The notes: generated by a model not told the origin, from the sequence alone. Shown: positions 7,619-36,052, numbered from the stretch's first letter. The stretch: 64,000 nt of DNA from Naegleria gruberi (GCA_000004985.1 GG738882.1); one strand, 5' to 3'. Program-made: numbers and translations.

Positions 7619-10600
7619 TTATTTAAACTTGATTTTCTGAAGCATCTCCTTCATCAACCGTATCAACATTACCACTATTATCATTATCATCTGCACTAAC
7701 AACTTGGTCAGCAGATTTTTCATCCTTTGATTCTTCTTCAACCACTTGCTTTTCATTGTTTTCAATTTTGTAGTGGCGGATTCTTCCAATTCAATTTCAT
7801 CAGAAGTGATAATATTTTCGGCTGGTTTTTCAATTTCTGGAGGAGAAACTATTGTTGGTACTTCTTCAACTGGTTGTTCAATAGTAACCAAAGGCTCGGA
7901 AGAAGGTTCAAGTGTAGTTTCTTGTGGTTGTTGATCATCTAAAGTAGGGGTTACCTCTTCCATTTCAATATCCTTAGCAGCTTGCTCTGCAACTACTTCT
8001 TTAATTAGTTTATCTTCTTTCTTCTTTCGTATAGCAACTATTACAACTACACCAGCAGTGGCTATTAAAACAAGTACCACCAAAGTAACTGATACACCAA
8101 TAGCAACGTCATCATTCATTATAGCAATTAAGCCACTTGATTTTGTTGGATGACTAATTGTGCTTGTATCTGTATTTGGAATTGAGCTGTGATTTGGATT
8201 GACAGTAGAATTAGTAGGTGAGGTAGTATTTGTAGTTGAAGTATTATTACTAACTGTGGTAGTATTGGTGACAGAGGTATTATTGCTAACTGTTGTGGTA
8301 TTAGTAACTGTTGTAGTATTAGTGACAGAAGTGGTATTAGTAATCTCAGTTGTGTTCTTAACTTGTTCAACAGTATCTTGTTCAACAGTGGAGAACAAAC
8401 CAATAGTGAAAGTACCAGTACGTTTAACTTGAACAGAGAATGTACTTGTATCATTTGAGGCAATAGTACAATCAGATGATTCAACATAGGTAGTTCCATT
8501 CAATTCCATACACTTATAGGATTGGACAATCTTTCTAGTTTGTGGAGTTCTTTCAATTGACAATGTAGCCAAAGTTTCATTTGAGACAATATTCAATGAA
8601 TTTGTGGAATCGAAAACGTAGAATTCAAATGATTTAGAGGCAGCTGTAAGATTGTAACCTGATGTTGGTGTAGAAACCTTCATATAAAGCTTGACATTTT
8701 CAATTTCAGCTAGTTCAGGAAGTGAAGTAACTGCTTCATTAATCTTGAATGAGGATTTATCATTGACAAATTCATTCAATCCAGAGAGAGTAGGAACACT
8801 GACTAATCTGGCATAAGAATAAGATCCAATACCTTCACCTCTAATAGCAGGCATGTCAGAAACAACATTCTTAATTTCACATTCAACCAAATTGGCGAAA
8901 ACATTATCTAACTTGGCCAAATCACTTGTTGTAAGTTTACGAGACTTGGTTGATCTAAGCCTCATCAAATTACGAGCTTGAGAAAGTGAGGAAGTTACAC
9001 GACTTTCTAAAACACCTGCTGAACCCTTGGTAGAATCAATTTGATCGGCTCCCATCTTTACAGAACCACTTGAAGAAGCTCCTGAAATTGTATTATCCAA
9101 ATTATCGACAACCTTTGAAACAGTGTCATCATTCAAAGTACCAACACAACCACTGATGGATGAAATTACGGAAATCTTTGAATTGGTGGATTCAGTGCTT
9201 TGTTCAGTGAGAGATTCCTCAGTAGATGTTTGATCAAAGTATTTGTTAACAAAGTTAGAAGCAGCTTCTTGGAATTGTTGAGCTTGCTCAGCATTTGTTG
9301 GAGAAACAGAACCAATAACACTCATGACAGATGCCATTGATGAAACAGAGACAGATCCTTGATCAGAAGAGAGTGTATCGAGAGCACTGATAGCATCTGG
9401 AAGAGAGACAACTACTTGTTGAGTTGTTTCTGATGCAGCACCCATAGAGTCATAGACAATGACCTTAATATCCAATTCACCAGCTGGGAGTGTAACAGAG
9501 ATTGACTTGGTTTCTGACTTTTGTGAGAGAATATTCCATGTAGAATCGTTTTGTTTCTTATATTGGAATTCGTAGAAGAGTGGTGATTGTGGATCAGACC
9601 AACCATTACCACATTTAATCTTGAATTCATCCTTCAATGCAACACCTGTGGATGGAGAAACTTCAAATTCACCCAAAGTTGGAGGAGAGTTAACAGTGAA
9701 TTGAATAGAGGCAGAACCCTTCTTCTTACCATCTACAATTGTAACATCAACCTTATAAGTAGCACCAGGAGCAAGTAGAGATTTTGGAATTGTGATATAC
9801 TTCTTGGAAACAACAATTGAAGAATCAAATTCCATATCTGATGATGACCATGTGAAAACTCTTTGATTTGTCAAACTATCCAATACAGAAGTTTGCAAGA
9901 CCAAATCAACAGATGGATCTAATGAGGTTAAATCTGTATCTTTTGGTGGTTGAATTTGGACACGAATCAATCTAGATTTTGGTTCATCCAAGATTGTTAT
10001 TTGGAGAGAAGCTTGAGCCTTTCTTGTTCCTTTAACAAAGCTAGCTGTGAAGAGATACAAACCAGGTTCCATTTGATTGACAAACTGAAGACTTGTTTGA
10101 TCAATATTATTTTCATTAGCTTGGAAACCATTACACATTTCTGCTGTATCAGTATTCATACATGTCAATGAGACAATACCATCAGTTGAGCTTGGAGCAC
10201 TTGGATCAGACTTGTAGACAGAGAATTTAACATCGTTTTCAAATGATTGAGACAAGTCTTTAACACTGAATGCAACCTTCAATGGTAATGCCTTTGCAAC
10301 AACCTTGAAATGAACAACAGTGTCTGAGGCACCTTCTTGAGAAACAGTCAAGACAAAGTAGTAATCACCTTCTTCAGTAATCTTGGTAAAGTCATTACCA
10401 AATACTAACAATTCATTTTGAGTCTTAATTTCAACAGCAGTTTGAGGATAGCCAGGATCTTGTTGATAATTGTAAGTGATTGGACCTGTACCCTTATAAC
10501 ATTTTGGAGTCGAAATCATTGGAGTAATGACAGCCTTGCTACCAATTGTGAATGTAGATTCAAGACCATCCTTAAGTGTAACAAATGGTGCAGTATTTTC

Positions 10601-13600
10601 TGTAACTTCAAATTTGACTGTCTTGACAGTTTGCTCTTGAGAGAATGAGCTCTTTACTGTAACTTGAACCAAATAAGAACCAACACTAAGAGTTTCTGCT
10701 GTGAATGAAACACCAGAGCTAGTAACTGAAGCGAGGAGATTATCAACCTTTTCATCATCATCTGGGGTTGGAGCTTCAATGTTTGTCCAAGAGAAGAGAA
10801 GCTTTCTTCTATCCAAAGATACAGAACCAGATGCATCCAAATAGATACTACCACAAGCCTTTGAGATGGATGCCTTGTCAGTAGTCAATACAGCAGCAGG
10901 AGCAATACTTTGATATTCCTTCTTATTAACAAGAACATCTTCTGTTTCTTCACTATCAAGATAACTTCTGAACTTTAAGGTATCTCCAATATTAATTGTA
11001 GCCATAGAACCGAGGACAATTTGGAATACATTCTTTTCGTTAAAGATACAAACAGGATTGGATCCCAATGAATCAACATTGGCAATAACACTAGAACACT
11101 TGATTCTCTTCTTGATTGGTGTGAAAATTGTACCAACAATAGAGTCACCCTTTTCAGTGAAACCAAATGTTGTTTCATCAACCTTATAATCACACTTATC
11201 ACCGTACCAACCTGGTAAACAAGATTCACAGCTGGCACCAATTGAATTACCTTGACATGAGCATGTACCATCCTTATTACAAGTACCCTTTGAATTACAA
11301 TTAACTGAAGCAGAACAAGCAATTTGACAATTATCACCAACATAACCATCCTTACAAGTATTACAGAATTCTCCTACCCAATTGCTACCAGCACTACAGA
11401 CACACTTGAATTCAGAATTACAAGTACCATGACTATTACAAGTAAATTCATCAGAACATGTTCTTTCTAAACATCCTTCACCAGTGTATGCAGGAGTACA
11501 AATTGAACAATACTTTTGAGGGTCATAATTTCCACTACATGAACAAACACCGGATGAAATACATTTACCCTTAGAAGAACAAACAAATGAAGTGTTGGAA
11601 CGGTCAATACCATCACACTTAAAGTTTTGACAACTTGATCCATCATAACCATCATTACATTTACAAACTGGAACACCATTTTCAGCAACACAACTACCTC
11701 TACCACCACAAACACTCTTATCAGTTGCGGTAATACCATTACAAATTGCAATATCACATGTTGGACCAGTAAATCCATTCTTACATTTATCACAATAAGT
11801 ACCAGCAAAATTACCCAAACAAGAACAAGTATTTGGTGAAACACATTGACCACGGAATGAACAGCCACCTTCAGTTTCAGTCTTACCATTACAAGTTGGT
11901 GTAGAACAGTCATAACCTGAATAACCATTTTGACATTTACACAAGTTAGGAGAATCACAGGTACCCTTTGATGAACAAGCATCAGAAGCAGTACTTTCCT
12001 TTCCGTAACAGATTGGAGATTGACAATAACTTCCTGTATAACCTTGCTTACATGAACAAGTATCTTGATCAACACATGAACCCTTACCAGAACAAACTCC
12101 AGTTGCAGAGTATTCCTTTCCAAAACATGTAGTATTTGGTGGTAAATAACTGCCATAGTAACAATTTGAGGTTGGCAATGTGGAACAATCAGTTGTGAAC
12201 AAGTCAGGATGAGTAACTTCATTGTTGAGAATAATAGAGCAAACACCTGAACACCATTGCTTTTCTTCTGGAACACCCAAAGCTGAAGGATTACATGGAG
12301 TGAATGATTGATAGCACAAGAATTTCTTAATGGCTGCTTTACAATCGTCTCCACATTCAAGACCTCTACTCTCAACTTGTTTCAATACTTCAGAGTAGTT
12401 AGTACTGGTAGTTTGATCCAATTTCAACAAATTAGCAACAATCATGGTCTTGGCTTCAACGGCATTAGTGGCACCTACTGCAAAATTAGTATTCTTAATA
12501 CTGTACTTGACATGAGCCTTACAGAATGGAACGGATACAGATGGAGCAGAAATACAAGCTGGAGTGAGTGTGTAAATATTACATTCATCACCATAGTATT
12601 CTGGAGGACAAACACGCTTACATTTACCACTTGTCATTGAATAACCAGAAATACAAGATGAACATGGTTGACTAGTATTAGTAGTGAGATAGCCAGTGTT
12701 ACAGATACAAGTTGTAGTTGATGATGTAGTATCAACATATTGACATACACCTTGTCCACAACCATTCTTACAAACTGGATCAGTTCTTACACAGGTACCA
12801 AACTTGTTGACATAACCTGCTGATGTAGAACAAGAGCAACCAGTGGTTGCCTTGGAGAAACCTAACAATGAATTACAAACACAAACACCTGCCTTGGAAA
12901 GATAACCTTGAGTGGTATCACAATAGCATGATCCTTCATTGTCTGGCAAGTAACCCAAATCAGCATTACAGACACAAGCGTTTGAAACATTGACCAAACC
13001 AACTGGACAAGCAGTACATGGATTTGTACTGTCAACAGTGATAAACTTATTTCTACATTCACAATATCCAATAGTGGTATTAGTCTTGAAGAAACAATCA
13101 CCATTTGATCCACAATTCAAATCACACTTGACAAGAGGAGTAATACATTGACCATCCTTTAGAGTTAATCCTTCTTTACAGACACATCCTCCGGAAACTT
13201 CATCAGAAACAAATCCAAGTGAGCTATCACAGACACATTTTCCATCAGAGAGAACAAATCCAGATTTACACTTTTGACAATTTGAGCCAGCAAAGTTATT
13301 GAAACAATTACAGAGTTGGTTACCCTTAGCGTCCTTAGTACATTCACCATTAGCACCACAATTCAAAACGCATGGTTTAACTTCACAGAGTGAACCGCTA
13401 TAATTATCAGTACAATTACAATAGGCAGTTCCTGTTGTGTTGACACAAGTACCATGTTGACAATCGAGAGTACATGGAGCAATGGTACATTGAGTTCCCT
13501 TGAATCCTTGATAACAAGTGCAAGTATCAATTCCACTACAGCTTCCCATTCCTGAACAAACTGAAACATTATTCATTGAAATTCCGTAGCAGGTANNNNN

Positions 13601-16600
13601 NNNNNNNNNNNNNNNNNNNNNNNNNNNNNNNNNNNNNNNNNNNNNNNNNNNNNNNNNNNNNNNNNNNNNNNNNNNNNNNNNNNNNNNNNNNNNNNNNNNN
13701 NNNNNNNNNNNNNNNNNNNNNNNNNNNNNNNNNNNNNNNNNNNNNNNNNNNNNNNNNNNNNNNNNNNNNNNNNNNNNNNNNNNNNNNNNNNNNNNNNNNN
13801 NNNNNNNNNNNNNNNNNNNNNNNNNNNNNNNNNNNNNNNNNNNNNNNNNNNNNNNNNNNNNNNNNNNNNNNNNNNNNNNNNNNNNNNNNNNNNNNNNNNN
13901 NNNNNNNNNNNNNNNNNNNNNNNNNNNNNNNNNNNNNNNNNNNNNNNNNNNNNNNNNNNNNNNNNNNNNNNNNNNNNNNNNNNNNNNNNNNNNNNNNNNN
14001 NNNNNNNNNNNNNNNNNNNNNNNNNNNNNNNNNNNNNNNNNNNNNNNNNNNNNNNNNNNNNNNNNNNNNNNNNNNNNNNNNNNNNNNNNNNNNNNNNNNN
14101 NNNNNNNNNNNNNNNNNNNNNNNNNNNNNNNNNNNNNNNNNNNNNNNNNNNNNNNNNNNNNNNNNNNNNNNNNNNNNNNNNNNNNNNNNNNNNNNNNNNN
14201 NNNNNNNNNNNNNNNNNNNNNNNNNNNNNNNNNNNNNNNNNNNNNNNNNNNNNNNNNNNNNNNNNNNNNNNNNNNNNNNNNNNNNNNNNNNNNNNNNNNN
14301 NNNNNNNNNNNNNNNNNNNNNNNNNNNNNNNNNNNNNNNNNNNNNNNNNNNNNNNNNNNNNNNNNNNNNNNNNNNNNNNNNNNNNNNNNNNNNNNNNNNN
14401 NNNNNNNNNNNNNNNNNNNNNNNNNNNNNNNNNNNNNNNNNNNNNNNNNNNNNNNNNNNNNNNNNNNNNNNNNNNNNNNNNNNNNNNNNNNNNNNNNNNN
14501 NNNNNNNNNNNNNNNNNNNNNNNNNNNNNNNNNNNNNNNNNNNNNNNNNNNNNNNNNNNNNNNNNNNNNNNNNNNNNNNNNNNNNNNNNNNNNNNNNNNN
14601 NNNNNNNNNNNNNNNNNNNNNNNNNNNNNNNNNNNNNNNNNTTTGACAAGTACAATTATTTGGGGATGAGCAAAAACCTTTTCCTGAACAAACATTTCGA
14701 TCATTGTAGAGAGAAATTGAACAGTTGTGGAATTGACAATTCTCACCATAATATCCATCTTGACATGTACAATTATTTGGAAGTGCACATAAACCATGAC
14801 CACTACAAACCAATGAAGAAGTTGATGGAATAGAGGAACAGTTAAATAATTTACAAGTTTCTCCATAATAGTCCAATTGACATTCACACTTATTTGGTTG
14901 AGAACATTTACCATTACCAGAACAAGCTGATGAATCATCATAACGTACAGATGAACAATTATACAATTCACAATTATTTCCATAATAGCCTGCATTACAT
15001 TTACAAGTATCTAAATCAACACATGAACCATGGCTGGAACAAACATCTCTTGAATCAGCATAGGTGTTATCACAACTTGGAATTTCACAATTATTTCCCT
15101 TAAATCCACCGTTACACTCACAAACATCAATATCAGTACATTTACCATTACCACTACAAACCATAGTAGAATTTGATGGAACAGATTTACAATTATACAC
15201 TTCACATGACTTTCCATAATAACCACCCTCACAAGAACATTGATTTGGAGCAATACAAGGACCTCTTGATGAACATACAGAATTTTCATTCTTGTAAGTG
15301 CCATAACAATCAAATTGAGAACAATCCTTGCCATAGTATCCTTCTTTACATGAACATTGATCTGGAGCAATGCAGCTTCCCAAACCAGAACATACAAGTT
15401 TGTCATCTGAAACAATGCCGAAACACTTTGGTTTTTCACAAGCAGTACCAGAGTAGATTGCTTCAAAGGTAGAATTTCCAGATTGGAAGCAAACCTTTCC
15501 AGCATAATTGAACAATGCTAATACACCATCATTTTCAAGAACCAAAGTAAATGGATGACTAATTCCAGAGTCAGAACATGTTACAAATTTGTTAGGAGAG
15601 TATCTAACATCAGATCCATCTTTTGGTGATTCACCAATGAACAATAATTGACCAAGAGCTGAGACTTCAATACGAACATTATTAGCCTCAACATTCCATT
15701 CACTAACAACTTCTCCAGTTGAAACCTTCTTAATCTTGATGTAGGTTAATTCAACAAGGAGTACATATTGTCCATTATTAGAAACCAATGAAGAATTTCC
15801 ATTCACAGCCACAACATTCAAAGCACTTGAAATGAATGAATTGCTTGAATTGAAACCACCACAAGAACAAGTACTTGGTGAAACGCAGAAACCTTGTCCA
15901 GAGCAAACTTGGGCATCATTATTGAAAACGCCAGAACATGTAAAGACTGCACAGGATTCACCTTCAAAACCAGCTTTACAGGAACAATTGTTATGGGAAA
16001 GACACTTGCCATTTCCGCTACATGCAGAATTATCGAGTGAATTGACATTGAAACAGTCGAACTTTTCACATTGTTCACCATATTCATTGTTCAAACATTT
16101 ACAACTGTTCGGAGCTGTACAAACACCTTTACCTGAAGTACAAGCTTTGGAATCATCAAAGGAAAGACCGAAACATTCGTATTTTTCACATTTAACACCA
16201 TAATATCCTTCAGGGCAAGAACAATTATCTGGTGAAATACATGAACCAACTCTGGAGCATGGTGATTCACTGACAGAAATATTGTAACAATAGTAATTTT
16301 CACAACGATCTCCAGAATATCCTGGTTGACAAAGACACGAGTTAGGACTATCGCACACTCCATGGCCTGAACAAACAGTGCTATTGGAGCTTGAAAGAGC
16401 GTAACAATCATGGAATTGGCATTCAGGTCCATAATATCCGTCTAAACATTCACATTTTCCAGGTTGAGTACAGTTACCATTTCTAGAACAAGCATTGACA
16501 TCACCAGCAGCAAAGTTGTAACATTGTGGAATATTACAATTCGATCCACTATAATGCAAAGAGTCAGTTGAGTTGAATTCTACACTGGCAAAACAAACTG

Positions 16601-19600
16601 AACCCATAATATTGTAAACAACTAGGGAACCATCGTTTTGCAATACCATCCTGAATGGAGCAGTAGAAGAGCTACAAACAGGAACAAAATCTGGAACATA
16701 TTTGACAGCACTAGTAGTGTTATCCTTTTCTAAAATTCCGTTGAATGTAACGATGCCACTATTTGAAATTTCAATAGTGATATTATTGAATAGGAAATCC
16801 CACTTCTTAGCAACCACACCAGACATGGCATTTTCGATAGAAACAAAGTTAGTTCCAATCGAAAGCAAATACTTTCCATTGGCTGACTTTAAGGTTTGAC
16901 CTTCTTCCAAGACAATGCTGGAATGATTGGTTGAAATACTGTTATCAGCAGAGAGATCCAAACACAAACAAGTATCAATATCTTTACACAAACCTCTTCC
17001 TTCACAAACATTTGGATCACTATTCAAAACACCATTACACTTGTAATTATTACACATTTCGCCTTCATAAGATTTCTTACATTGACAAACGTTTGGAGAA
17101 ATACATTGACCAAAACCACTGCAAGTAGAAGGACTCTTTGAATCGACACCAAAGCAATCATATTTTTCACATTCAACACCATAGTATCCACTCTTGCATT
17201 TACAATTATTTGGACTCTTACATTCACCATTTAATGAACATGATTCATTGCTTGATTTACCATAACAGTAATAGGTTTCACACATCTGGCCAGAGTATCC
17301 TTCATGGCAAGAGCAATTATCATGAGCAATGCATTTACCAGACGAAGAGCAAACTGTTCCCTGCTCAGCATCAATATCAAAACAAGAGTAAATGGAACAA
17401 TCACTGCCTCCATATCCACTTTCACAAGAACAGTTATTAGGAGAAATACATGATCCTCTGGAGGAACATACAGAGCTGTCACTCATTAAAATACCATTAC
17501 AGTCATAGTGCTGACAATATGCTCCATAATATCCTTCTTCACATGAGCAATTATTAGATGAAGAGCACACACCATGTGATGAGCAAGCCATTGAGCTGTT
17601 AGAAAGTACTCCATAGCAAACTGGAATTTCACAAACAGCACCTCCATAGAGTTGACTGAATTGAGTTTGATTACTTGATTGATAACAAATATCACCTCTA
17701 GAATTGAACAATAACAATGTTCCTAAATCATCAAGAACCAATTTGTAATAAGAAGAAACTTTCCAATTCTTGCATTCTTCTGATTGGAATTGTCCAATAA
17801 TCAGAACGCCCCTATCACTAACATAAATGCTAGAAGCTTCCCAAGAGGAAATGACAGCACCATTACTAGTATCAACAATGATTGTAGAGTTTTCAGTGAT
17901 ATTCAATTGGAATTTTCCATTGGAAGAAATCAAAACTGATTCAAAAACTGATGTTGCATTATTTAGCAAGTAACTATTAGAGGAAGAAAGCCAATTACAT
18001 GAACATTCATCTTGAGCAACACAGAAGCCATGTCCAGAGCAAATATTACTATCATTATTAGCGATTCCACCACAAGAATATATTTCACAATTTTCACCAT
18101 AATAACCTGGTTGACATTTACAACTATTAGGGGCAGCACATTGTCCACGAGCTCCACAAACATCAGCCATTGATTTTTCAATACCACCACAATCATAGAA
18201 TTGACAATTATTTCCATAGTAACCATCTGCACATTCNNNNNNNNNNNNNNNNNNNNNNNNNNNNNNNNNNNNNNNNNNNNNNNNNNNNNNNNNNNNNNNN
18301 NNNNNNNNNNNNNNNNNNNNNNNNNNNNNNNNNNNNNNNNNNNNNNNNNNNNNNNNNNNNNNNNNNNNNNNNNNNNNNNNNNNNNNNNNNNNNNNNNNNN
18401 NNNNNNNNNNNNNNNNNNNNNNNNNNNNNNNNNNNNNNNNNNNNNNNNNNNNNNNNNNNNNNNNNNNNNNNNNNNNNNNNNNNNNNNNNNNNNNNNNACT
18501 TGTGGTACAGTAATAGAGTTCACAATTCAAACCTTGGTATCCATCTTTACATTTACATACATTTGGTTCAGAACAGTTACCCATTCCAGAACAAACACTT
18601 GGTTTCAATCTAGAAATACCATCACAATCAAAGATGTTACATTCATCTCCATAGTAGGATTGAGAACAAACACAGGTATCTGGAGCAACACATGAACCAC
18701 TTCCTGAACAAACCTTCGAATCATTGAATTCAATGCCATAACAGAGAGGAGTATTACAAATTTCACCACCATATTGAATCGTGAATTTTACATTTTCATC
18801 AGCATTGGTTTCAAAACAAATATCACCTACAGGTCCGTAAGTAATAAGTTTACCATTATTTTGAAGAACAAATCTATATGGATGACCAATTTGACTATTT
18901 GCACATTCTTGATTGAGGGTAACATTATCACCAAGAGAAAGAATACCCAAATCAGAAATTAGTAAAGCCAGTGAATCAGAACTATTTGTCTTGAATTCAT
19001 AAACAATAGAACCAGTAAGAGTATTTTCAACTCTTAAGGAATCAGTAGTGATGAAAGCTCTATAATTTCCATTATTGGAAACAATTGAAGTATTCATTGA
19101 GAGAACAAGATTGTTTTCCAATGATGAAATAATAGTATTGTTCTCAGAAGCATCAATGCAGGTACATGTGTCAATTGCAGAACAAATACCTCTTCTTGAA
19201 CAAACAGATGAATCAGTGTTTGGTAGTCCTTGACAGGTGAACGTCAAACATTGATCTCCAGTGTATCCAGCAGTGCAATTACAAGTATTTGGTGAAACAC
19301 ATGAACCGTGACGTCCACAGACTTCACTAGAGTTAAAGGCTATACCATAACAATCGTGGTTTTCACAATTATTGCCATAGTAACCATTTTGGCATTTACA
19401 ATTATTTGGAGCCACACATGATCCCATTCCAGAGCAAACATTTGATTCATTCTTGTGAATTCCGTCACATTCAAAATGTTCACACTCATTTCCGTAATAT
19501 CCATTCAAGCATGAACAATTGTTTGGAGCAGAACATGATCCAAATGAAGAACAAACTGTCGAAGCTTTCAAAATCTTTCCATAACAATCATAATTTTCAC

Positions 19601-22600
19601 AATTTTCACCATAATATCCATTTTGACATTGGCACTTATTTGGTTGAGAACATGAACCTTTTCCAGAACAAACTGAGGCATCTGAGAAGACAACTCCTGA
19701 ACATTTGTGATATTGACATTCAGCACCATAGTAACCTTCTTGGCATTCACAAGTGTTTGGAGCAACACAAGAACCAAATCCTGAACAAACATTTGTATCA
19801 TTTGGAAGTTTAGAATAACAAACTTGAGCATTACATTTTTCTCCACCATAGTATTGTGTAATATTTACACTTTCACCAGTACTTTCGAAACATTTAATAC
19901 CACTAGCAGAGTACAAAACCAAAGAACCATCATCAACCAATTGTAATCTGAAAGGATGATCAAAGATATTGCACTTTGTGTTATCATTCAAAGTGAATGA
20001 GGCTCCCTTAGATTCGTAGGTACGATTACCATAGACAGTAATGACACCTTGAGTTGAAATTTCCAATGTTTGATTAATCAAGGAAGTTCTCCATTGTGAA
20101 ACAATTCTTCCACTAACATGTTCAACTCTAAGGAATTCATAACCGAAGGATAATGCGTATTTTCCATTAGCTGAGGTGAGAGTGCTAATACCTTCCTCAA
20201 TAGCAACATTGGATTTAGCAGAACTCATAAATGTACTGTTTTCTGTAAAGTCTTTACAAGAACAAGTATTAATTGAGGAACATATACCACTTCCAGAACA
20301 AACCTCAGAGTCAATATTTTGAACACCAAAGCATTCATAAGCTTGACAAGCATTTCCAGAGTATCCGTTATTACATTGACAATTGTCAGGAGAAGTACAT
20401 TTACCAAAACCGCTACAAGCATCAGTAGAATTGAAAACTTGATTGAAACACTTGTACCATTCACAATTATTTCCATAGTACCCCTTATCACAAGTACAAG
20501 AATCTGGTTTCAAACATGAGCCCTTTCTTTTACAAACTGAGGATTCATTGAATGCAACTCCATAACATTCAAAATAGTCACAATTTACACCACTATAGCC
20601 ACTATTACATGAACATTTGTTTGCAGAATCACATGAACCGTTTCCAGAACAAGCTGATGTTTCGTTATATAATACTCCAAAACATTCATAGAGTTCACAA
20701 TTTGCTCCACTATATCCTTGTTGACAAGTGCAGTTATTGAGAGAAACACAATCACCTCTTCCAGAGCATACTGATGAATTGACATTAATAATTCCAGAAC
20801 AAGTGTGATATTGACATTTATCACCAGTAAATCCTTCAGCACAGTTACACTTATTGACTGCAATACAAGAACCACTTGAGCTACACACATACGGATTTGT
20901 AGCCATCAAACCATGGCAAACTGGAGCATCACAATTGATGCCTCTATAACCAGCATTGGCTGCATTAGAAATGGATGATTCACTATTGTTAGTAGACCAA
21001 CAAAGTCCACTTTCTGAAATCAGTTCTAAACCAAAATCACTCAAGAATAGTCTGACTGTGCCAGATTCAGTACAACTGGCAATTGTATCTGTTTTTTGAC
21101 TAGTTACAATAATGAGAGAGTTACCACTTAATCTTAAATTTGGTTGGGAATTGTATGACCATTGTTTTCTAACTTCCATAGTAGCTGTTTCAATAACAGA
21201 AACGTTATATTTACCAACAAGTAATTGTAAGATTTGGTTTGGTGATCTTAATGTGCTGTTTTCACTCAAAACAACATTGTCATTACTAGTAATAATTGAT
21301 TCAGGAGTAATGTCCATACAAACACAAGAATCTGGTGCTGAACATACACCCCTACCTCCACAAACACTTGTGGTATTACTCTTATTGATTCCATTACAAT
21401 AATAGGTATTACAATTGCTACCACTATATCCTTGTTGGCAGTTACATGTATCTGGAGAATTACATGAACCATGATTACTGCAAACTCCATTCGTATTATA
21501 AGGAATATTGAAGCAATTATAGCTTGAACATTGCTGACCATAATAATTATTATTACATTGACATTTTTCTGGAGATTGACATGCACCCCTACCTGAACAA
21601 ACAGTAGCAGTATTCTTGAAACTAGTTCCAAAGCAATTATAATTTTCACATTGTAAGCCATAATATCCTTGTTGACATACACAGTTATCAGGACTAGAAC
21701 AAGTACCCCTTGATGAACAAGCTGAAGAAGAAGAATGGGAAACACCATAACAGGAGAAAGTTTCACAATTAGGACCAGAATATCCAGTATTACAAGTGCA
21801 GTTATCTGGTGAAGTACATGATCCTTTTCCTGAACACACAGATGCATTAGTATATAACACTCCATTGCATGTGTATTTTTCGCAATCAATACCAGTGTAT
21901 CCTGTATTACATATACAGTTGGCATTTTTACATGATCCATGTTTAGAACACACTCCTATATTATTTTCTCCTAGTGTATTACAATAGAAATTGGTACACT
22001 CTGCCCCACCTACTGAGCTAAGCAAATTTTGGTATAAGGCAGTACAAATATTACCTAGAGGATTTGCTATAACCAAGTTACCAGTATTGTCAATTACTAG
22101 ATAGAATATAGATTTATCCTTGCAAGAATATACACTTGGAGCTGATGATGTAATTGCCACAGTTTCGTGATGTCTTAAAACGCTAGGATAATTATCCAAG
22201 TAGAGGTAACCATCATAGCTGTCTATTTGAAGTGCAATGCTTCCAAATTTTTCAAGAATTAATGCACCATTAGAGGTATATAATTTGTGTCTTCCATTAG
22301 GAGATATTAAGGAAATATCAGGTTTGCTAATTCTTCCTGGGTTAATTACGAATGAATTGGTTGAAGTAATCTTTGCTTTTGAACAGTCACATTCACCAGG
22401 AGAGACACAAAATCCATTTGAGCTACAAGAAGTATTTGAAGTGGACAATTCATTGTAACAATAATAGTCAGCACAAGTACTTCCACTATATCCAGCCTTA
22501 CAAACACAGTTATCTGGTGAAGTACAAGAACCATGGCCGGAACACACAGATGCATCACTGTTTAAAACGCCATCACATGTGAACTTTTCGCAATTAGTTC

Positions 22601-25600
22601 CAAAATAACCACCGCTACAAGTACAAGCTCCTTCTGAACAATTACCTTGACCTGAACAGACACTACGACTGGTCTCCAGTACTCCATTACATTTAGTCAA
22701 TTCACAATCTGTACCTGCATATACATTTAACACTGCAAGGTTGATTGCAGAACAAATATAAGATCCTTGATAAACAACCAAGTTTCCAGTATTTTCTAGT
22801 ACAAGCGTATATTGAGAATTACGATCACAAGAATAAGAAGTAGAAGTAAGAGAGGTAATAGTTAACTGTTGATGAACATCGGACAACACAAGCAAATGAT
22901 CAGAAACATATAAATATTTGTTGTCTGTAGCCTGCTTGAAAAGAAATTGTTGAATTGTTTCACCTTTTCGTTTCAAGTCAAAGGATTGAGTTCCTGATTG
23001 GAATTTGTATTTTTCATTTGTGGAAGTGAGTGCAAAATCTGAATACTGGTTACCATGGCTCATTTTGTAATGGTTTTGATTGACGCCACCTATTAGCTTT
23101 AGTGTGCTACATTCACATTTATCAATATCATAACATTGGCCATTACCTGAACATGAAAGAGGAGATGAGTAGAGAACTCCACTACAGTGGTAATCAGAAC
23201 ACCATGTGCCACTGTATCCTGTTTTACATGAACATGTATTCTTATCAATGCAAGAACCATGTCCTGAACACACACTAGTAGAGGTATTTAAAATGTTATT
23301 ACAAGTGTACAAGTGACATTCAATACCTCCTAACCCAGTTGGACAAGTGCAACTTTCTGTACTGTCACATTTTCCAATACCACCACAGACAGTAGGGTCT
23401 GAATGGTTCTTTCCATTGCAGTACCAATTGTCACAAGTAGGTCCCGAATATCCATATTGACAATGACAAGTATCAGGAGCAAAACAGTAACCTTTGCGAC
23501 TGCAAACAGAACTATCGCTGTTTGCCTTTCCGTGACAATAATAGGTTCCACAGGTGGTTCCAGTATAGTTTGCCTTACATGTACACACATTTGGAGTTAA
23601 GCATTCTCCATTTCCATTGCAGGCATTACCATTTGTATCGAGTGGACATTTTGTAATTTCACAATAATCTCCAAAATAGCCATCCTCACACTTGCAAGAA
23701 TTTACGCCAATGCAAGTACCACGCGAACTACAAACGGATGAATTTGTTGGAGAAATTCCATTGCATGTAAATGTTTCACAGTTTGATCCATTAACCAAAG
23801 ATTGTGTGGTACTTTCTGCAACGTAATAACTATCTTTTGTTGATGCATAACATTTACTTCCATATCTATCTCTTGTAACCAATTGACCATTATTTTCAAG
23901 ATTCACCGTAAATGGATATCCATAACATGGATAAGTTTCCACCGTGTAAGGCATGTTTCCATAATCACCCTCAAAAGTAGGTTTTCCCAAAGCATCCAAA
24001 AAAAGTTTTGTTGAATAGTAATTATTATATATCGCCCAAATAACAGATCCTGTTTTGAGATTATAAACAAATGCGTTAGAATAATTTGGGAAACTGAATT
24101 TGTATTTTCCATTTGGTGAATACAAGGCAACACCAGAAGAATCAACTTGGAAAAAGGAATCTGACTTTGACAATGCGTAAGTTCGGGATTTAGTAGGTAC
24201 ATCAGCACATTTACATGTATCATAGCTAGTACAATAACCTTGTCCAGAACAGACTGCAGATAAATTGGTAGCACTTACTCCAAAACATGTGTAATTTTCA
24301 CATGCAATTCCTGAATGACCAAAGTTGCATTGACAATTATTTGGAGAAACACATTTACCATTATAAGAACACGAAATTGGCAATGAACTGTCATAGCCGT
24401 TACAAGCAAACTTTTCACATCTAGTGCCACTATAACCAGCTGTACAATTACAAGTATTTGGAGCAATACATTGACCTCCAGATGAACAAACTGTTGAGGA
24501 ATTCCAAGCAATACCAAAACATGCTTGTATTTCACAAGATTCTCCAATGTGACCATCTTTACATTGACATGTGTTTGGTTTAGTACATGAACCTAATCCA
24601 GAACAAACTGAACTATCGTTATGCTCGTATCCAAAACAGTCAAAATATTCACAAACATCTCCATAGTAACCTGGCAAACATGAACAATTGTTTGGTGATG
24701 TACATTGTCCATGTGCTGAACATACCGAACTATTGGTAGAGAAAATATTATTACACTCATACTTTTCACATGTAATTCCATAATATCCAGGTTGACATTG
24801 GCAATTATCAGGTTCAACACAAGTACCATGAGATGAGCAAACCAAAGATGAATCAAATGGAGTACCATAACAATTTGAAAGTTGGCAATTATTTCCAAAA
24901 TAGGAGGAATTAAATGTACTGTTTGAACCAGTTGAGTAACAAACATGTCCAAGATGATAATTAACTAGCAAGAGATCACCATTATTAGTGAGAACAATTC
25001 TGAATGATCCTCCAGCACAGTCTATTTCTCCAAAGAGTTTAGAAGCACTTTCTTCAGTTGCATTTATGGAAATATAACCATAAACCAAAACAGTACCATT
25101 GGAATCAACTTCAATTCTTTGATTCCAAAGACCAGTTGACCAAGTTTTCATAATACTGTTTCCAGAAGTTATCATAATTTTGTTGTCTTGAATAATGAAT
25201 TGATATTTTCCATTAAGGGAATACAATTCACTGCCGTTCATCATTACAGTAGAATTACCATCAAAATAGAATGAATTTCTCGATACAAAATCAAAACAGG
25301 TACACTTATTTGGAGAAATGCAAACACCCTTTCCAGAACAAACATTTTCATCGTTTCTATTCAAACCATCACATTCGAATTCAGTGCAATTATCTCCGTA
25401 ATATCCTGTATTACATTGACAAGTATCAACTGCAATACATGAGGCAAAAGCTGGACAAGCATCAGGTGAGAATCTCGAAATACCGTTACATGCCCATTCT
25501 TGACAATTACTACCAGAATATCCTGGCTTACATTCACAGTTATCAACATGAGTACAATTACCAAAACCAGAACAAACCATACTCGAATTTGCACTCACTC

Positions 25601-28600
25601 CAAAACAAGTATCAAATTCACAAAAGTTTCCAGTGCGATTACTGAAACAATTACATTCATTCGGTCCAACACATTCACCATTTGAAGAACAATTTCCAGA
25701 GCAGGTAAATTGGTCACAATTCAATCCAGTCCATCCTTCCTTACATTCACATGTTGGTGGAGATTGAGTACCCTCATTGGTGAGACATTTGCCATTACCA
25801 GAACAAACTCGAGGAGAATTGAAAGTAATTCCAAAACAGCCTAAAACTGCACACTCCTCGCCAGCATAATATCCTTTACATTGACAGGTGTTTGGTGAAG
25901 TACAAGAGCCATTTCCTGAACAAACACTTGAATTATCGTGAGCAATACCAAAGCATTCAAACATTTCACAAATGTGTCCCCTGTATTCTGAATTACATTT
26001 ACATGTATTTGGTGAAACACATTTACCTTTTCCAGAACAAACACTTGAATCGCTCTTATAAATCCCATAACAAGCAAACTTTTCACAAAGGTCTCCATAA
26101 TAGGTTGAATTACATTGACACTTCTTTGGACCAACACAAATTCCCTGTTGATTACATTCAGATGTAAATTGAGCAGAATCAAAACATTCAAATTTTTCAC
26201 AATTAGAACCAAAAGCTCCTTCAACACATGAACAAGTTTCAGGGGCTACACAATTTCCATTGCCACTACACACACTAGAATTTGAGGAAAGAATACCATT
26301 ACACTTAAACTCATTACAAGCACCAAACAGATACTTGTAAGTGCTATTGACAGAGATGGTATAACAGAGCACATTGGCTGATGTGTAAACTGCCAAATCA
26401 CCTGTATCTTGGAGAACGACAGTAAATTGGCCTCCTTCACAAGTTTGATCAGTAATTGGTGTTGATATGACATTGACTGTGGAATTTCCATCTTCTTCAA
26501 TGGTAACATTTGAAAAAGTCAATTCTAATTGACCATTGGCAGATATTTTCAATTCTGCTTCGGAACTTTCAGAATTTACTTGATACAACAATTCATTGGT
26601 CTTGACATTCATAATGGAAAAGTTGCCTTGATTCATTGTTGCCTTATAAATTCCATAGGTTGAGGAGAGTGAACTGTTTGAAGAAAGAACAATTCCTCCT
26701 GTAGTGGCAATCTTGAAATTATCAGAACTAATCTCTCCAATACATTGACATTCATCAACGCCCACACAAATTCCCTTTCCAGAACACACCTTCTTGTTAT
26801 TACTCAAAATACCATAGCATGTGAAATCTGAACAATTATCACCAGTGAACCCAGTATTGCATTGACACTTATTTGGACCAATACATTTACCATTCCCACT
26901 ACAAACGTTGGAAGAAGAAGGATCGATATCATTACATGCAATATATTCACAATTTGTACCATTAGCTCCAGCAGCACAATGACATGTATCATTTGCGACA
27001 CAAACACCATTACCAGAACAGACCAAAGAAATGTTTGCGCTTGGAATACCTGCACAGTAAATAGGTGGTTCTTCACTTTGGGTAGAATTGGATGTATCTA
27101 TGAAGGTGGAATTATCAGTTGATGTTCCATTGTTTTCAGAACTAGTTGAATTATTATCAATCAAAGTACTGTTATCAACGAGTGTGCCATTTTCAACTTT
27201 TGTACTATTATCAGAGATAGTACTGTTATCAACAAGCGTGGAATTATCAGTCAAAGTACTATTGTCTGTTAAGGTACTGTTATTATCATCACTAGGTAAA
27301 GTTTCATTACCACCAGGTACAGTACTATTGTTATCAACTTGTGTACTATTATCATTTGTAAGAGTACTATTATCAAAAATAGTGGAATTTTCATTCAAGG
27401 TACTGTTATCACTAATGACTGTTTCATTACCACTTGGTAATGTACTGTTATTAATGAGTGTGACATTTTCAACTTGTGTGCTGTTATCAACAGTTGTTTC
27501 GTTAGCATCTGATACTGTACTATTATCAACTTGTGTACTATTATCAGAGATAGTACTGTTATCAACCAGAGTGGAATTATCAGTCAAAGTGCTATTATCT
27601 ATCAAAGTACTATTATCAACTTGTGTACTATTATCATTTGTAAGAGTACTATTATCATAAATAGTGGTGTTTTCATTCAAGGTACTGTTATCACTAATGA
27701 CTGTTTCATTACCGCTTGGTAATGTACTGTTATCAATTAAAGTACTGTTTTCAGCAAGAGTTGAATTTTCTCCTTTTGGCAAAGTTTCATTATCAAAGGA
27801 AGTAGTATTATCAACAGTTGTTTCATTACCACTTGGTAAAGTACTGTTATCAACGAGAGTGCCATTTTCAACTTTTGTGCTATTATCAGAGATAGTACTG
27901 TTATCAACCAGAGTGGAATTATCAATCAAACTACTATTGTCTGCTAAGGTACTGTTGTCTGCAAGCGTAGAATTATCCTCAGTTGGCAAAGTTTCATTAT
28001 CAAAAGAAGTGCTATTTTCAGCAATTGTTTCATTAGGCATTTGATGCTGTACTATTATCTATCAAAGTACTGTTATCAATGAGTGTGCCATTTTCAACTT
28101 GTGTGCTGTTATCAATTAAAGTGCTGTTATCAACAAGAGTTGAATTATCTCCCTTTGACAAAGTTTCATTACCAAATGAAGTGCTGTTATCAACAGTTGT
28201 TTCGTTAGCATCTGATGCTGTATTATTGTCAATCAAAGTACTGTTATTTTCAACGAGTGTACTATTATCACCAGGTAAAGTCTCATTACCATCTGGTAAT
28301 GTACTATTATCAGCCAAAGTACTGTTATTTTCAACTTGTGTACTATTATCAGAGATTGTACTATTATCAACAAAAGTTGAATTATCAATCAAAGTACTAT
28401 TATCTATCAAAGTACTGTTATTATCATCACTAGGTAAAGTTTCATTACCACCAGGTACAGTACTATTGTTATCAATTAAAGTACTGTTTTCTGCTAGAGT
28501 GGAATTTTCTCCTTTTGGCAATGTTTCATTATCAAAGGAAGTAGTATTATCAACCGTTGTTTCAATACCTCCTGGTAAGGTACTATTATCAACAATTGTT

Positions 28601-29691
28601 TCATTACCGCTTGGTATAGTTTCATTTGCATCTGATGCTGTACTATTATCCATAACTGTAGTATTAGAATCGTTTGATCCTTCAACAGTTGAGTTCTTTT
28701 CATCTGAGGATACACCGTTATCATTTAAGGTACTATTATCAGCAAGAGTGGAATTATCAATTAAAGTAGTGTTATCAAGCAGCGTACTATTGTCAAATTG
28801 TGTGCTATTATCAGAGATAGTACTGTTATCAACCAGAGTGGAATTATCAGTCAAAGTACTGTTGTCTGCTATGGTACTGTTGTCTGCAAGCGTAGAATTT
28901 TCCTCAGTTGGCAAAGTTGCATTATCAAAAGAAGTACTATTATCAACCAAAGTACTGTTATTTTCAGCAATTGTTTCATTAGCATTTGATGTTGTATTAT
29001 TATCCATAACCGAAGTAGTATTATTGGAATCGTTTGATCCCTCAATGGTAGAGTTCTTTTCATCTGAGGATACACCATTATCAACCAAAGTACTGTTATC
29101 AACGAGTGTGCCATTATTGTCATAGAGAGTACTGTTATCAAGAGTTGAATTATCAATCAATGTACTATTATCTATCAGAGTACTGTTATCAGCAAGTGTA
29201 GAATTTTCCTCAGTTGGCAAAGTTGCATTATCAAAAGAAGTACTATTATCAACCAAAGTACTGTTATCAACAAGCGTGCTGTTGTCAACAACAGAAAGAG
29301 TACTATTGTCCTCTTGTGTGATATTATTGGAAGAATCAACAGAAGGTGAATTAACAACAAGCAAATCACTACAAGTTGGACCTCCATATCCATCGTTACA
29401 TGTCTCACATATTCCAGTCTCGACGTTACAACTGCCATGCTCACATATTCCATTCACATCTGTACAATTCTCTTGGCAATAAGTAGAGTTGTAAGCATAG
29501 TAAGACTCTGCACAAGCGCAATTTGCAGCTCCGCAATCACCCTTACACAATGGGTCAGTAGGGCATGAACTTAATGCAACATCATTGTCAGCCTTAATAA
29601 AAGTAATCAAGGCAAAGAAGAAGAGCAAAACTACAAGCAAAACTGCTCTCTTCTCCAGCAAGATGGTTAATTTCATTTTTTTTACAGTCAA
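7619..29691 (-). CDS. Giant surface glycoprotein gene (~22 kb, ~7,000 aa) interrupted by assembly gaps and two apparent 1-bp frameshifts
   Basis: Three minus-strand ORFs are contiguous: 28033..29691, 13569..28040 and 7619..14995. (1) Signal peptide 'MKLTILLEKRAVLLVVLLFFFALITFIKA'. (2) Cys-rich N-terminal module 'CPTDPLCKGDCGAANCACAESYY...CETCNDGYGGPTC'. (3) About 750 aa of 'DNSTL/V/I' NxS/T pentapeptide repeats (27080-29340). (4) At least 11 units of a ~110-aa bulb-type (B_lectin/comitin-like) module followed by 5-9 EGF repeats of ~32 aa ('C.G......VCSG.G.C..PN.C.C..GY.G..CE.F.C'). Example lectin module: '...LYSLNGKYQFIIQDNKIMITSGN...IVLTNNGDLLLVNY'. This part spans ~14642-27075. (5) After the gap: EGF/Cys-rich region, a Cys-rich 'LECGDDCKAAIKKFLCYQSFTPCNP...' module, and ~600 aa of beta-rich repeats resembling PKD/REJ modules. 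(6) Thr-rich stalk 'TNTTSVTNTTTVTNTTTVSNNTS'. (7) TM helix 'IGVSVTLVVLVLIATAGVVVIVAI' followed by 'RKKK'. (8) Acidic tail. The ORFs join through a 1-bp indel at ~28035 and are split by N-runs. Confidence 0.8.
13597..14641. other. Assembly gap (N-run, ~1045 nt) inside the giant gene
   Basis: Run of n. ORFs 13573..14655(-) and 13576..14646(+), translated as X, are gap artefacts. Confidence 0.99.
14642..27075 (-). repeat. Tandem coding array of tenascin-type EGF repeats (~96 bp) punctuated by bulb-lectin-like modules
   Basis: Regular Cys spacing in the translation. At least 11 lectin-like modules each carry 'NGKY' and 'NNG(D/N)L(V/L)' motifs typical of beta-prism II lectins. The array is interrupted by the N-run at 18237-18497. 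Confidence 0.75.
18237..18497. other. Assembly gap (N-run, 261 nt) inside the giant gene, in frame as sized
   Basis: Run of n. It is 87 codons, so the ORF continues through it. Confidence 0.99.
27080..29340 (-). repeat. Coding minisatellite: 15-bp (pentapeptide 'DNSTL') N-glycosylation-sequon repeat array, ~2.2 kb
   Basis: On the plus strand, 'agtact(a/g)tt(a/g)tcaac'-type 15-mers are reiterated about 150 times. The translation is '...DNSTLVDNSTLIDNSTLTDNSTISDNSTQVDNSTL...' with occasional 'PSGNETL'. Confidence 0.85.
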
Positions 29692-31112: not shown

Positions 31113-31299
31113 TGCTTAATAATAATAATTTACAGGTATTGCGTTGTCTTGTTGTTGAGAGAATTTCGACGCAACTGTGTTGAGTCTTTTTTTGATAATT
31201 GAAAACTGCCTGTAATTGCTCAAGGTTCATTACAGCGAGTAGAGGCAATGTAGTAGTATTAGTATTCAACTCAACATTTTAAAAGGAATAAGTAGTTAA

Positions 31300-36042: not shown

Positions 36043-36052
36043 ATATAATTGA
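36043..36052 (+). promoter_or_regulatory. TATA-like element upstream of the Myb gene
   Basis: 'tatatataat' lies ~200 bp upstream of the ATG at 36252. The ~1 kb leader region (35.3-36.25 kb) is C-rich and not typical AT-rich spacer. Confidence 0.3.

What the first reader, a model, noticed from the sequence alone, without database searches (positions are those of the whole stretch)
28025..28045. 1-bp frameshift joins the signal-peptide ORF to the 4,823-aa ORF: sequencing indel or a disabled gene
ORF 28033..29691 ends '...IDNSTASNA*'. ORF 13569..28040 begins 'MPNETIAEN' in the +1 frame at the same place. The repeat consensus elsewhere is '...ASDANETIAEN...'. Removing one base in 'AATGCCTAATGAAAC' restores '...ASNANETIAEN...'. 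So the two ORFs are one CDS broken by a single-nucleotide indel.
Basis: seen in the sequence. Interest (0 to 1): 0.5.

Follow-up and report, generated by a model that had tools for sequence, protein, structure and literature searches.

The report
One-base frameshift splits giant amoeba gene
A single extra C in the draft Naegleria gruberi genome splits one very large (about 7,350 codon) surface-protein gene into two reading frames; this is an ordinary sequencing error or a very recent knockout, not a new mechanism.

Summary
On the minus strand, ORF 28033..29691 (true ATG at 29676, signal peptide) ends ...TASNA-TAA. The +1 frame then continues the same N-x-S/T repeat as ...NETIAEN. The nearest paralogous repeat copy, about 945 nt upstream, reads TCAAATGCTAATGAAACAATTGCTGAAAAT. 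The junction reads TCAAATGCCTAATGAAACAATTGCTGAAAAT, which is exactly one extra C (28037/28036).

The window is Naegleria gruberi NEG-M, a Sanger draft scaffold. The "4,823-aa ORF" is partly an artefact. It contains two runs of N (261 and 1,046 nt), and the gene really continues to 7619. The result is one CDS of about 7,350 codons: signal peptide, 127-sequon N-glycosylation stalk, EGF arrays with 11 bulb-lectin-like modules, REJ domain and one TM helix. This gene is missing from the protein databases searched.

An intron is not supported: there is no consensus donor. Programmed +1 frameshifting is not supported either: there is no downstream structure, the paralogous copies are in frame, and no precedent was found.

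I could not reach independent reads, so the cause stays open. I estimate assembly or base-call error at about 0.5 and a genuine recent frameshift (a disabled gene or allele) at about 0.42. A second probable 1-nt break lies in the cytoplasmic tail (about 7766-7769). Interest is low.

The parts
29590..29676 (-). Start codon (ATG 29676-29674) and predicted signal peptide MKLTILLEKRAVLLVVLLFFFALITFIKA of the giant gene.
   Evidence: Translation. Mean Kyte-Doolittle hydropathy is 2.8 over residues 10-27. No signal-peptide predictor was available, so the cleavage site is inferred.
28036..29589 (-). Upstream frame of the CDS: a small Cys-rich EGF-like N-terminal domain, then the first about 440 residues of the N-x-S/T-rich repeat region.
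   Evidence: Codon log-odds are positive only in this frame.
28036..28037 (-). The frameshift itself: the CC dinucleotide, one C of which is extra relative to the paralogous repeat copies (GCT -> GCCT).
   Evidence: Motif listing, alignment A1, and stop-codon bracketing of the shift to 28058..28036.
28030..28035 (-). Tandem stops TAA TGA met by the upstream frame. They are by-products of reading AAT GAA one base out of register.
27076..28034 (-). Continuation of the same N-x-S/T repeat region in the +1 frame (NETIAENSTSFDNETL...), up to the first EGF array.
   Evidence: There are 127 sequons in the first 870 residues of the joined protein.
18498..27075 (-). EGF arrays alternating with bulb-lectin-like modules, same frame as the previous part.
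   Evidence: Pfam EGF_2 1.6e-57 and EGF_TEN 1.4e-44. A profile of the 11 modules hits pyocin L1/L2, putidacin L1 and monocot lectins in the PDB at E 2.6e-6 to 1e-3.
18237..18497 (.). Assembly gap (261 N) inside the CDS.
14642..18236 (-). Further EGF and lectin-like super-repeats, same frame.
13596..14641 (.). Assembly gap (1,046 N, not a multiple of 3) inside the CDS. The apparent end of the '4,823-aa ORF' at 13569 is an artefact of this gap.
7769..13594 (-). C-terminal third of the CDS: EGF and Cys-rich modules, REJ domain (about 9347-10153), TM helix (8030-8107) and an acidic cytoplasmic tail.
   Evidence: Pfam REJ 4.2e-39. 42-48% identity to N. gruberi paralogs. TM coordinates.
7766..7769 (-). 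A4 run where a second 1-nt frame break (a missing A) probably lies.
   Evidence: After ..EESATT the assembled frame scores -38.9 bits over 54 codons. The -1 frame scores +36.6 bits over 53 codons and reads KIENNEKQVVEEESKDEKSADQVV...ENQV*.
7622..7768 (-). Probable true C-terminal coding frame (stop TAA 7624-7622). The assembled frame stops at 7621-7619.

Best explanation
Shown: ORF 28033..29691 and ORF 13569..28040 are two pieces of one minus-strand protein-coding gene of Naegleria gruberi NEG-M. The gene spans 7619..29676, about 7,350 codons of which 6,915 are sequenced. The reading frame is interrupted by one extra C in the codon that should read GCT (Ala), at 28037/28036.

The joined protein is a type I surface protein. 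It has a signal peptide, a small Cys-rich domain and an N-glycosylation-sequon stalk of about 850 residues. Then come EGF arrays interspersed with at least 11 bulb-lectin-like modules, a REJ domain, one TM helix and an acidic tail.

Inferred: the extra C is most likely a base-call or consensus error of the 2010 Sanger draft. It sits in a gene the assembler clearly struggled with, since two gaps lie inside it. On this reading the amoeba makes the full-length protein by ordinary translation.
For: - One-base gap against two paralogous repeat copies, with near-identical flanks.
- The shift is bracketed to 23 nt by stops in both frames.
- Coding statistics switch frame exactly there and nowhere else, apart from the gaps and the extreme 3' tail.
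- About 4,380 sequenced codons stay open downstream, whereas the abandoned frame has 0.31 stops per codon.
- Only the upstream piece has a signal peptide. The downstream piece has none, and its ATG is created by the shift.
- The domain content is extracellular up to one C-terminal TM helix.
- N. gruberi and N. fowleri paralogs carry an N-x-S/T-rich stretch directly ahead of EGF arrays within single ORFs.
- The source is the N. gruberi NEG-M scaffold. Six window ORFs are identical to NAEGRDRAFT proteins. That assembly was made by Sanger sequencing (PMC9928731 Table 1).
- Two N gaps lie in the same gene.
- The extra base doubles a C, and the second break shortens an A run. Both are typical miscalls in low-quality read ends (my own knowledge).
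Against: - No read-level or independent sequence of the site could be obtained.
- There are two probable 1-nt breaks in this gene and none in the other roughly 25 kb of coding sequence in the window. That clustering fits a gene-specific cause such as decay at least as well as random error.
- Neither break is close to an assembly gap (9.5 kb and 5.8 kb away).
- A related strain loses synteny 616 nt upstream of this gene, and no fragment of the gene from that strain is in the protein databases. The gene may therefore be dispensable.
- Indels are common between N. gruberi lineages: 36 indels against 47 SNPs in 7.8 kb.
Confidence: 0.5

Rival explanations
1. The extra C is real. A recent one-base duplication has disabled the gene in strain NEG-M, either on one haplotype or fixed. 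Translation stops after 547 residues and yields at most a secreted glycosylated N-terminal fragment. The downstream 6,800 codons are a very young pseudogene that has had no time to collect stops. NEG-M is a long-kept axenic laboratory strain, so a prey- or substrate-binding surface receptor could be dispensable.
For: - A second probable frame break lies in the same gene, and none in the rest of the window.
- Indels are nearly as frequent as SNPs between N. gruberi lineages, and most are not multiples of 3. With two frameshifts, only about 0.2 nonsense changes would be expected. An otherwise clean ORF is therefore compatible with recent decay (my estimate).
- A related strain differs structurally just upstream of the gene, and no orthologous fragments were found.
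- The gene belongs to a fast-evolving paralogous family whose best relatives are only 42-48% identical.
Against: - Codon usage and repeat structure are perfectly preserved on both sides.
- The site doubles a single base, which is also a common base-call error.
- The same gene has two unresolved assembly gaps, which indicates poor local assembly.
- Rough rates favour an error: one draft indel in 20 kb is not rare, whereas a fixed loss-of-function mutation in a particular gene is (my estimate, not measured here).
Confidence: 0.42
2. Programmed +1 ribosomal frameshifting. The ribosome decodes GCC, meets UAA in the A site, skips the U and continues with AAU GAA. It makes the full-length protein from the sequence as assembled, in the manner of antizyme (UCC-UGA-U), Euplotes (AAA-UAA) or Ty3 (GCG-AGU-U).
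For: The site has the formal layout of a stop-codon-stimulated +1 shift: sense codon, 0-frame stop, open +1 frame. The downstream ORF is intact for thousands of codons.
Against: - The paralogous repeat copies in the same gene read the homologous sequence in frame without the extra base, so the site is not a conserved feature.
- The 98 nt downstream fold no better than shuffles (z = +0.85, 164 of 200 shuffles fold as well).
- The P-site codon GCC cannot re-pair with CCU.
- The 0 frame has tandem stops (TAA TGA).
- No paper in the library links Naegleria with programmed frameshifting.
- Paralogous family members are single ORFs.
Confidence: 0.03
3. The two ORFs are joined by a spliceosomal intron, or they are two separate genes: a secreted 547-aa glycoprotein and an independently initiated downstream protein.
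For: The genome does have short GT-AG introns, for example 4861-4903 (GTGAGT...AAAG) and 43108-43155 (GTAAGT...ATAG), which restore frames in neighbouring genes. An ATG lies at 28040.
Against: - There is no GT[AG]AGT donor anywhere in the repeat region on this strand. The 76 GT..AG pairs of length 3n+1 that could bridge the frames match the donor consensus at only 4 of 6 positions, and they would remove repeat-coding sequence.
- The similarity to the paralogous unit runs straight through the junction with one base extra.
- The downstream protein would lack a signal peptide although it is all EGF, lectin-like and REJ ectodomain plus a TM helix.
- The ATG is an out-of-frame by-product of the shift.
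Confidence: 0.02

Closest known systems
Single-base indel artefacts and young frameshift pseudogenes in draft eukaryotic assemblies
   Same: Two adjacent ORFs in frames 0 and +1 continue the same protein. There is one base extra relative to the paralogous sequence. Coding statistics are intact on both sides.
   Different: Nothing differs in kind. It is unusual only in the size of the gene affected (about 22 kb, intronless as far as seen) and in that the gene is absent from the deposited proteome.
Naegleria EGF-REJ-TM surface protein family (N. gruberi 'predicted protein' P0002 and P0004, 'basal body protein' P0005, P0006; N. fowleri FDP41_001861 P0001)
   Same: Teneurin-type EGF arrays, a Cys-rich region, a REJ domain, a single C-terminal TM helix, and an N-x-S/T-rich stretch ahead of the EGF arrays. 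Identity is 42-48% over the C-terminal 1,200 residues.
   Different: This gene is 3.5-5 times longer. It has a sequon stalk of about 850 residues and at least 11 bulb-lectin-like modules between EGF arrays. It has no subtilase domain, which P0001 and P0002 have. It is broken by a frameshift as assembled.
Polycystin-1 / sea-urchin REJ receptor family
   Same: A REJ domain (PF02010, E 4e-39) in a large extracellular region that also carries lectin and EGF-type modules.
   Different: One TM helix instead of the polycystin 11-TM/PLAT module. The lectin modules are bulb-type-like rather than C-type. A GPS/GAIN cleavage motif was not examined.
Stop-codon-stimulated +1 programmed frameshift sites (antizyme UCC-UGA-U, prfB CUU-UGA-C, Euplotes AAA-UAA/UAG, Ty3 GCG-AGU-U; from my own knowledge)
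   Same: Layout: a sense codon, then a 0-frame stop, with the +1 frame open.
   Different: The site is not conserved among the paralogous copies. There is no stimulatory structure, no re-pairing potential and no known precedent in Heterolobosea.

Membership tests
One CDS broken by a 1-nt indel (error or mutation) | Homologous sequence without the indel aligns across the break with exactly one base of difference | tested here: met
   Alignment A1 with two paralogous repeat units has a single-C gap at column 80.
One CDS broken by a 1-nt indel (error or mutation) | The coding signal continues in the shifted frame directly at the break, with no non-coding spacer | tested here: met
   Codon log-odds are +44.8 bits upstream and +40.8 bits downstream in the respective frames. 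The frame scan is, and the stops bracket 23 nt.
Sequencing/assembly artefact | Independent reads or assemblies of the same strain lack the extra base | not testable with these tools
   No copy of the site was found: protein searches, exact look-ups, metagenome DNA scan. The related-strain assembly ERZ929261 stops short of the gene.
Genuine frameshift pseudogene | Further disabling lesions or relaxed constraint downstream | tested here: inconclusive
   There are no in-frame stops in 6,915 sequenced codons. A second probable 1-nt break lies at about 7766-7769. Both facts fit either very recent decay or errors.
Programmed +1 ribosomal frameshifting | The shift site is conserved in homologous sequences | tested here: not met
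   Paralogous copies of the repeat are in frame. Paralogous proteins are single ORFs. True orthologues were not available.
Programmed +1 ribosomal frameshifting | Stimulatory RNA structure or a known shift-prone heptamer | tested here: not met
   The downstream 98 nt fold at z = +0.85 against shuffles. GCC-UAA-U is not one of the characterised motifs, and GCC cannot re-pair in +1 (from the sequence and my own knowledge).
Spliceosomal intron | GT..AG boundaries with the local donor consensus GT[AG]AGT and a length that restores the frame | tested here: not met
   There is no consensus donor in 26900-29700 on the minus strand. The best candidates match 4 of 6 positions. Local introns used for comparison are 4861-4903 and 43108-43155.
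REJ-domain receptors (PF02010) | REJ domain above the Pfam gathering score | tested here: met
   134.8 bits against a cut-off of 25, E 4.2e-39.
Polycystin-1 proper | GPS motif, PLAT domain and 11 TM segments after the REJ domain | tested here: not met
   Only one hydrophobic helix (8030-8107) was seen, followed by an acidic tail. Pfam gave no PLAT or PKD-channel hit. The GPS motif was not specifically searched.
Bulb-type (GNA-like, PF01453) lectin domain | Significant profile match to B_lectin or solved monocot-lectin folds | tested here: inconclusive
   A profile of the 11 modules hits pyocin L2, pyocin L1, putidacin L1 and garlic/snowdrop-type lectins at E 2.6e-6 to 1e-3. Single modules reach only E 0.064 against PF01453. 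No structure was predicted for them.
Hexapeptide-repeat left-handed beta-helix | A folded LbH, not only the [LIV]-[GAED]-x2-[STAV]-x periodicity | tested here: inconclusive
   Hexapep scores 33.1 bits (cut-off 27), and LbH_EIF2B scores 42.9 bits, below its cut-off of 54. AlphaFold2 without an alignment gives mean pLDDT 35 and no helix of strands. The best database relatives are unrelated low-complexity proteins.

The most novel reading that the evidence does not exclude
The extra C is genuinely in the genome and in the mRNA, and Naegleria ribosomes bypass the GCC-UAA site by a +1 shift to make the full-length 7,350-residue receptor. This would be the first programmed frameshift reported in Heterolobosea. 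It would occur at a site with no slippery re-pairing and no downstream structure.
Probability: 0.02. Interest if true: 0.6.

Novelty: already known. Interest (0 to 1): 0.1.

Why it matters
The main value is for annotation. Joining the pieces gives one gene model of about 7,350 codons, apparently the largest in this region and absent from the deposited N. gruberi proteome. No protein with more than 48% identity turned up in two word-indexed searches and one exhaustive search.

The gene encodes a lectin-EGF-REJ surface protein that could be a prey- or substrate-recognition receptor. If the frameshift is real, it would be an example of loss of such a receptor in an axenic laboratory strain. If it is an error, it is a reminder that giant repetitive genes are lost from draft proteomes because of single-base errors and gaps. 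Neither outcome changes what is known about mechanisms.

Tried and rejected
- **Independent copy of the junction: not found.** A junction-corrected 1,245-aa query, a C-terminal 1,178-aa query and an exhaustive phmmer search of ORF A against 1.84 billion representatives found only distant paralogs or low-complexity look-alikes.
- **Exact look-ups: not on record.** This applies to ORF A and to two antisense ORFs, one of which spans the site.
- **JGI metagenome contigs: no hits.** I scanned for the junction with or without the extra C.
- **Related-strain assembly: does not reach the gene.** This is ENA ERZ929261, run ERR1078381. One contig covers window 31124-38903. The next covers 31139-30292 and then diverges. 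No paper mentions PRJEB11402.
- **Intron hypothesis: rejected**.
- **Frameshift-stimulating RNA structure: rejected**. The literature search for Naegleria with programmed frameshifting was empty.
- **Folded hexapeptide beta-helix for the repeat region: not supported** by AlphaFold2.
- **First guess at the organism: wrong.** I first suspected a dictyostelid or a giant virus. The UvdE neighbour showed the window is N. gruberi NEG-M.
- **Original genome paper: not available.** The Cell paper is not in the searchable library.

Full report
**1. What is in the sequence**

On the minus strand an ORF runs from 29691 to a TAA at 28035-28033, and it ends ...LIDNSTASNA. Its listed start is TTG; the first ATG is at 29676. 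A second ORF starts at ATG 28040-28038 in the +1 frame and reads MPNETIAENSTSFDNETL....

The downstream frame has stops at 28064 and 28061, and the upstream frame stops at 28035. Any frame change must therefore lie within 28058..28036.

Listing every AATGAAAC motif in the repeat region shows a paralogous copy about 945 nt upstream. It reads TCAAATGCTAATGAAACAATTGCTGAAAAT, whereas the junction reads TCAAATGCCTAATGAAACAATTGCTGAAAAT. A MAFFT alignment of the junction unit with two paralogous units places a single one-base gap at the second C (28037/28036). The flanks are near-identical against the closer copy.

Codon-usage log-odds, trained on confident coding sequence of the window, are +44.8 bits for the 59 codons before the site in the first frame. 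They are +40.8 bits for the 61 codons after it in the second frame. All other frames are strongly negative.

The abandoned frame accumulates 106 stops in the next 345 codons.

**2. Where the window comes from**

The neighbouring ORFs encode eukaryotic domains: START, scramblase-like, Zn2Cys6, UvdE, TM2, DUF4116 and a cap methyltransferase.

The UvdE ORF (39163-40272) is 100% identical to 'predicted protein [Naegleria gruberi]' on a 381,539-bp scaffold. Five more window ORFs are exact matches to NAEGRDRAFT_80537, _70132, _70134, _70139 and _70140.

The window is therefore the N. gruberi NEG-M draft assembly. That assembly was made by Sanger sequencing (PMC9928731, Table 1).

It contains three runs of N: 13596-14641, 18237-18497 and 58320-58369.

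**3. What the gene really is**

The '4,823-aa ORF' contains 436 X codons from two of those N runs. Its last 8 codons, after the 1,046-N gap, are an out-of-frame artefact.

The coding signal resumes after that gap in the frame of ORF 7619..14995. The gene therefore spans 29676 to 7619. That is about 7,350 codons using the gap estimates, of which 6,915 are sequenced.

The architecture, from N- to C-terminus, is:
- a signal peptide (hydropathy 2.8 over residues 10-27);
- a small Cys-rich EGF-like domain;
- about 850 residues of N/S/T/D-rich hexapeptide-like repeats carrying 127 N-x-S/T sequons;
- long EGF arrays (EGF_2 1.6e-57, teneurin-type EGF 1.4e-44), interspersed with at least 11 modules of about 120 residues;
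- a REJ domain (4.2e-39);
- one TM helix (8030-8107) and an acidic tail.

A profile of the 11 modules matches lectin-like bacteriocins and monocot mannose-binding lectins in the PDB, at E 2.6e-6 to 1e-3. Single modules reach only E 0.064 against Pfam B_lectin.

The closest proteins found are N. gruberi paralogs, at 42-48% identity over the C-terminal part. They also place N-x-S/T-rich stretches directly ahead of EGF arrays in single ORFs.

No protein in the databases matches this gene closely. ORF A is not in the 15-billion-protein collection. The regions I searched are therefore unannotated.

**4. Alternatives to a plain indel**

*Intron.* The genome has short GT-AG introns with GT[AG]AGT donors, for example 4861-4903 and 43108-43155. 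No such donor exists in the repeat region. The 76 frame-restoring GT..AG pairs match the donor consensus at only 4 of 6 positions. The paralog alignment also runs straight through the site.

*Two genes.* The downstream product would be an ectodomain without a signal peptide. Its maximum 15-residue hydropathy in the first 300 residues is 0.27. Its ATG exists only because of the shift.

*Programmed +1 frameshifting.* The layout GCC-UAA-U resembles stop-stimulated +1 sites, but several points count against it:
- the paralogous copies are in frame;
- the 98 nt downstream fold no better than shuffles (z = +0.85);
- GCC cannot re-pair in the +1 frame;
- two stops follow in tandem;
- no paper links Naegleria with programmed frameshifting.

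I give this about 0.03.

**5. Error or real mutation?**

This is the open point, and the tools could not settle it. No independent copy of the position could be reached.

An independent MEGAHIT assembly of a related strain exists (ENA ERZ929261, run ERR1078381). One contig covers window 31124-38903 at about 98% identity. The next contig covers 31139-30292 and then continues for 139 nt that match nothing in the window. Synteny therefore ends 616 nt upstream of the giant gene, and no fragment of the gene from that strain was found.

For an error:
- the source is a Sanger draft;
- two gaps lie in this very gene;
- the change doubles a single base;
- rough base rates favour it (one consensus indel in about 20 kb is not unusual).

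For a real lesion:
- A frame scan shows a second probable 1-nt break in the same gene. After ...EESATT (7771-7769) the assembled frame scores -38.9 bits. The -1 frame scores +36.6 bits and continues the acidic tail as KIENNEKQVVEEESKDEK...ENQV*. One more A in the A4 run 7769-7766 would join the two.
- No other seamless frame switch exists in the window.
- Between the two N. gruberi lineages, indels are almost as common as SNPs (36 against 47 in 7.8 kb) and mostly not multiples of 3. A young pseudogene with two frameshifts would therefore be expected to show hardly any nonsense codon yet (my estimate).
- The gene may be dispensable or strain-specific.

My estimates are: error 0.50, real recent frameshift 0.42, programmed frameshift 0.03, intron or two genes 0.02.

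**6. Side result on the repeat region**

The repeats match the Hexapep profile (33 bits against a cut-off of 27). AlphaFold2 on 417 residues, run without an alignment, gives mean pLDDT 35. The best database 'relatives' are unrelated low-complexity proteins. I read the region as a heavily N-glycosylated, probably extended stalk, not as a demonstrated beta-helix.

**7. Verdict**

This is one CDS broken by a single-base insertion, due either to an assembly error or to a disabled gene. The ORF length was wrong: the gaps and the true 3' end were missed. The phenomenon is ordinary, so interest is low. The practical gain is a corrected model for a giant lectin-EGF-REJ surface-protein gene of N. gruberi that was not found in the protein databases searched, plus a short list of read-level checks that would settle the cause.

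Noticed in passing
window 7622-7790, minus strand: A second probable 1-nt frame break lies in the same gene. After ..DEIELEESATT the assembled frame reads KLKTMKSKWLKKNQRMKNLL... (-38.9 bits). The -1 frame reads KIENNEKQVVEEESKDEKSADQVVSADDNDNSGNVDTVDEGDASENQV* (+36.6 bits). An extra A in the A4 run 7769-7766 would join them.
   Followed up: partly
window 13596-14641 and 18237-18497: Two runs of N lie inside the giant CDS. The 1,046-N run is not a multiple of 3, so the frame appears to change across it, and the '4,823-aa ORF' ends in an artefactual YLLRNFNE*.
   Followed up: yes
window 7619-29676, minus strand: The gene of about 7,350 codons appears absent from the deposited N. gruberi proteome and from metagenome-derived proteins. 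The best hits to its N- and C-terminal parts are paralogs at 48% identity or less, although six neighbouring ORFs are exact NAEGRDRAFT proteins. The middle of the gene was not searched.
   Followed up: partly
window about 14700-26730, minus strand (11 modules; alignment A2): Modules of about 120 residues between the EGF arrays carry an L.S.NGKY...W...L.L.N.G.LV.Y...C pattern. As a profile they hit pyocin L1/L2, putidacin L1 and monocot mannose-binding lectins (E 2.6e-6 to 1e-3). They look like divergent bulb-type lectin domains.
   Followed up: partly
window 27076-29358, minus strand: The repeat region is 64% N/T/S/D with 127 N-x-S/T sequons in the first 870 residues (which include the short signal peptide and Cys-rich domain). 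It has the hexapeptide periodicity [LIV]-D-N-S-T-L that scores above the Pfam Hexapep cut-off, but AlphaFold2 gives pLDDT 35.
   Followed up: partly
L004 positions 849-987 versus window 30292: In a related N. gruberi-like strain (ENA ERZ929261 / ERR1078381) the sequence matches the window at 99.5% from 31139 to 30292. It then continues with 139 nt found nowhere in the window. Synteny therefore breaks 616 nt upstream of the giant gene's ATG, so the locus may be structurally polymorphic.
   Followed up: partly
L002 versus window 31124-38903: The related strain is about 98% identical, with 36 indels against 47 SNPs. Indels inside ORFs are multiples of 3, except a 1-nt difference at window 34488, in the last codons of the NTPase-like ORF (191 aa in the window, 187 aa in the related strain).
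   Followed up: partly
window 3523-6992, plus strand: A multi-exon gene for a receptor-like protein. It has a signal peptide, an ectodomain and a TM helix, then a protein-kinase motif (IGEGGMGVVYLA) cut by a stop at 5945-5947, and kinase C-lobe sequence resumes at about 6370-6992. It has a 43-nt GTGAGT...AAAG intron at 4861-4903. A second short intron (48 nt, GTAAGT...ATAG) at 43108-43155 joins ORFs 42447-43130 and 43191-45032.
   Followed up: partly
window 7313-7384, minus strand: A tRNA-Glu(CTC) gene lies 235 nt downstream of the giant gene's stop codon.
   Followed up: no
window 39163-40272, plus strand: For the UvdE UV-damage endonuclease, beyond other heteroloboseans (Naegleria, Willaertia, Acrasis; 51-62% identity), almost all listed relatives are bacterial or archaeal UvsE proteins and unnamed metagenome sequences at about 45-50% identity. 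One rotifer (Adineta steineri) protein at 44% is also listed.
   Followed up: no
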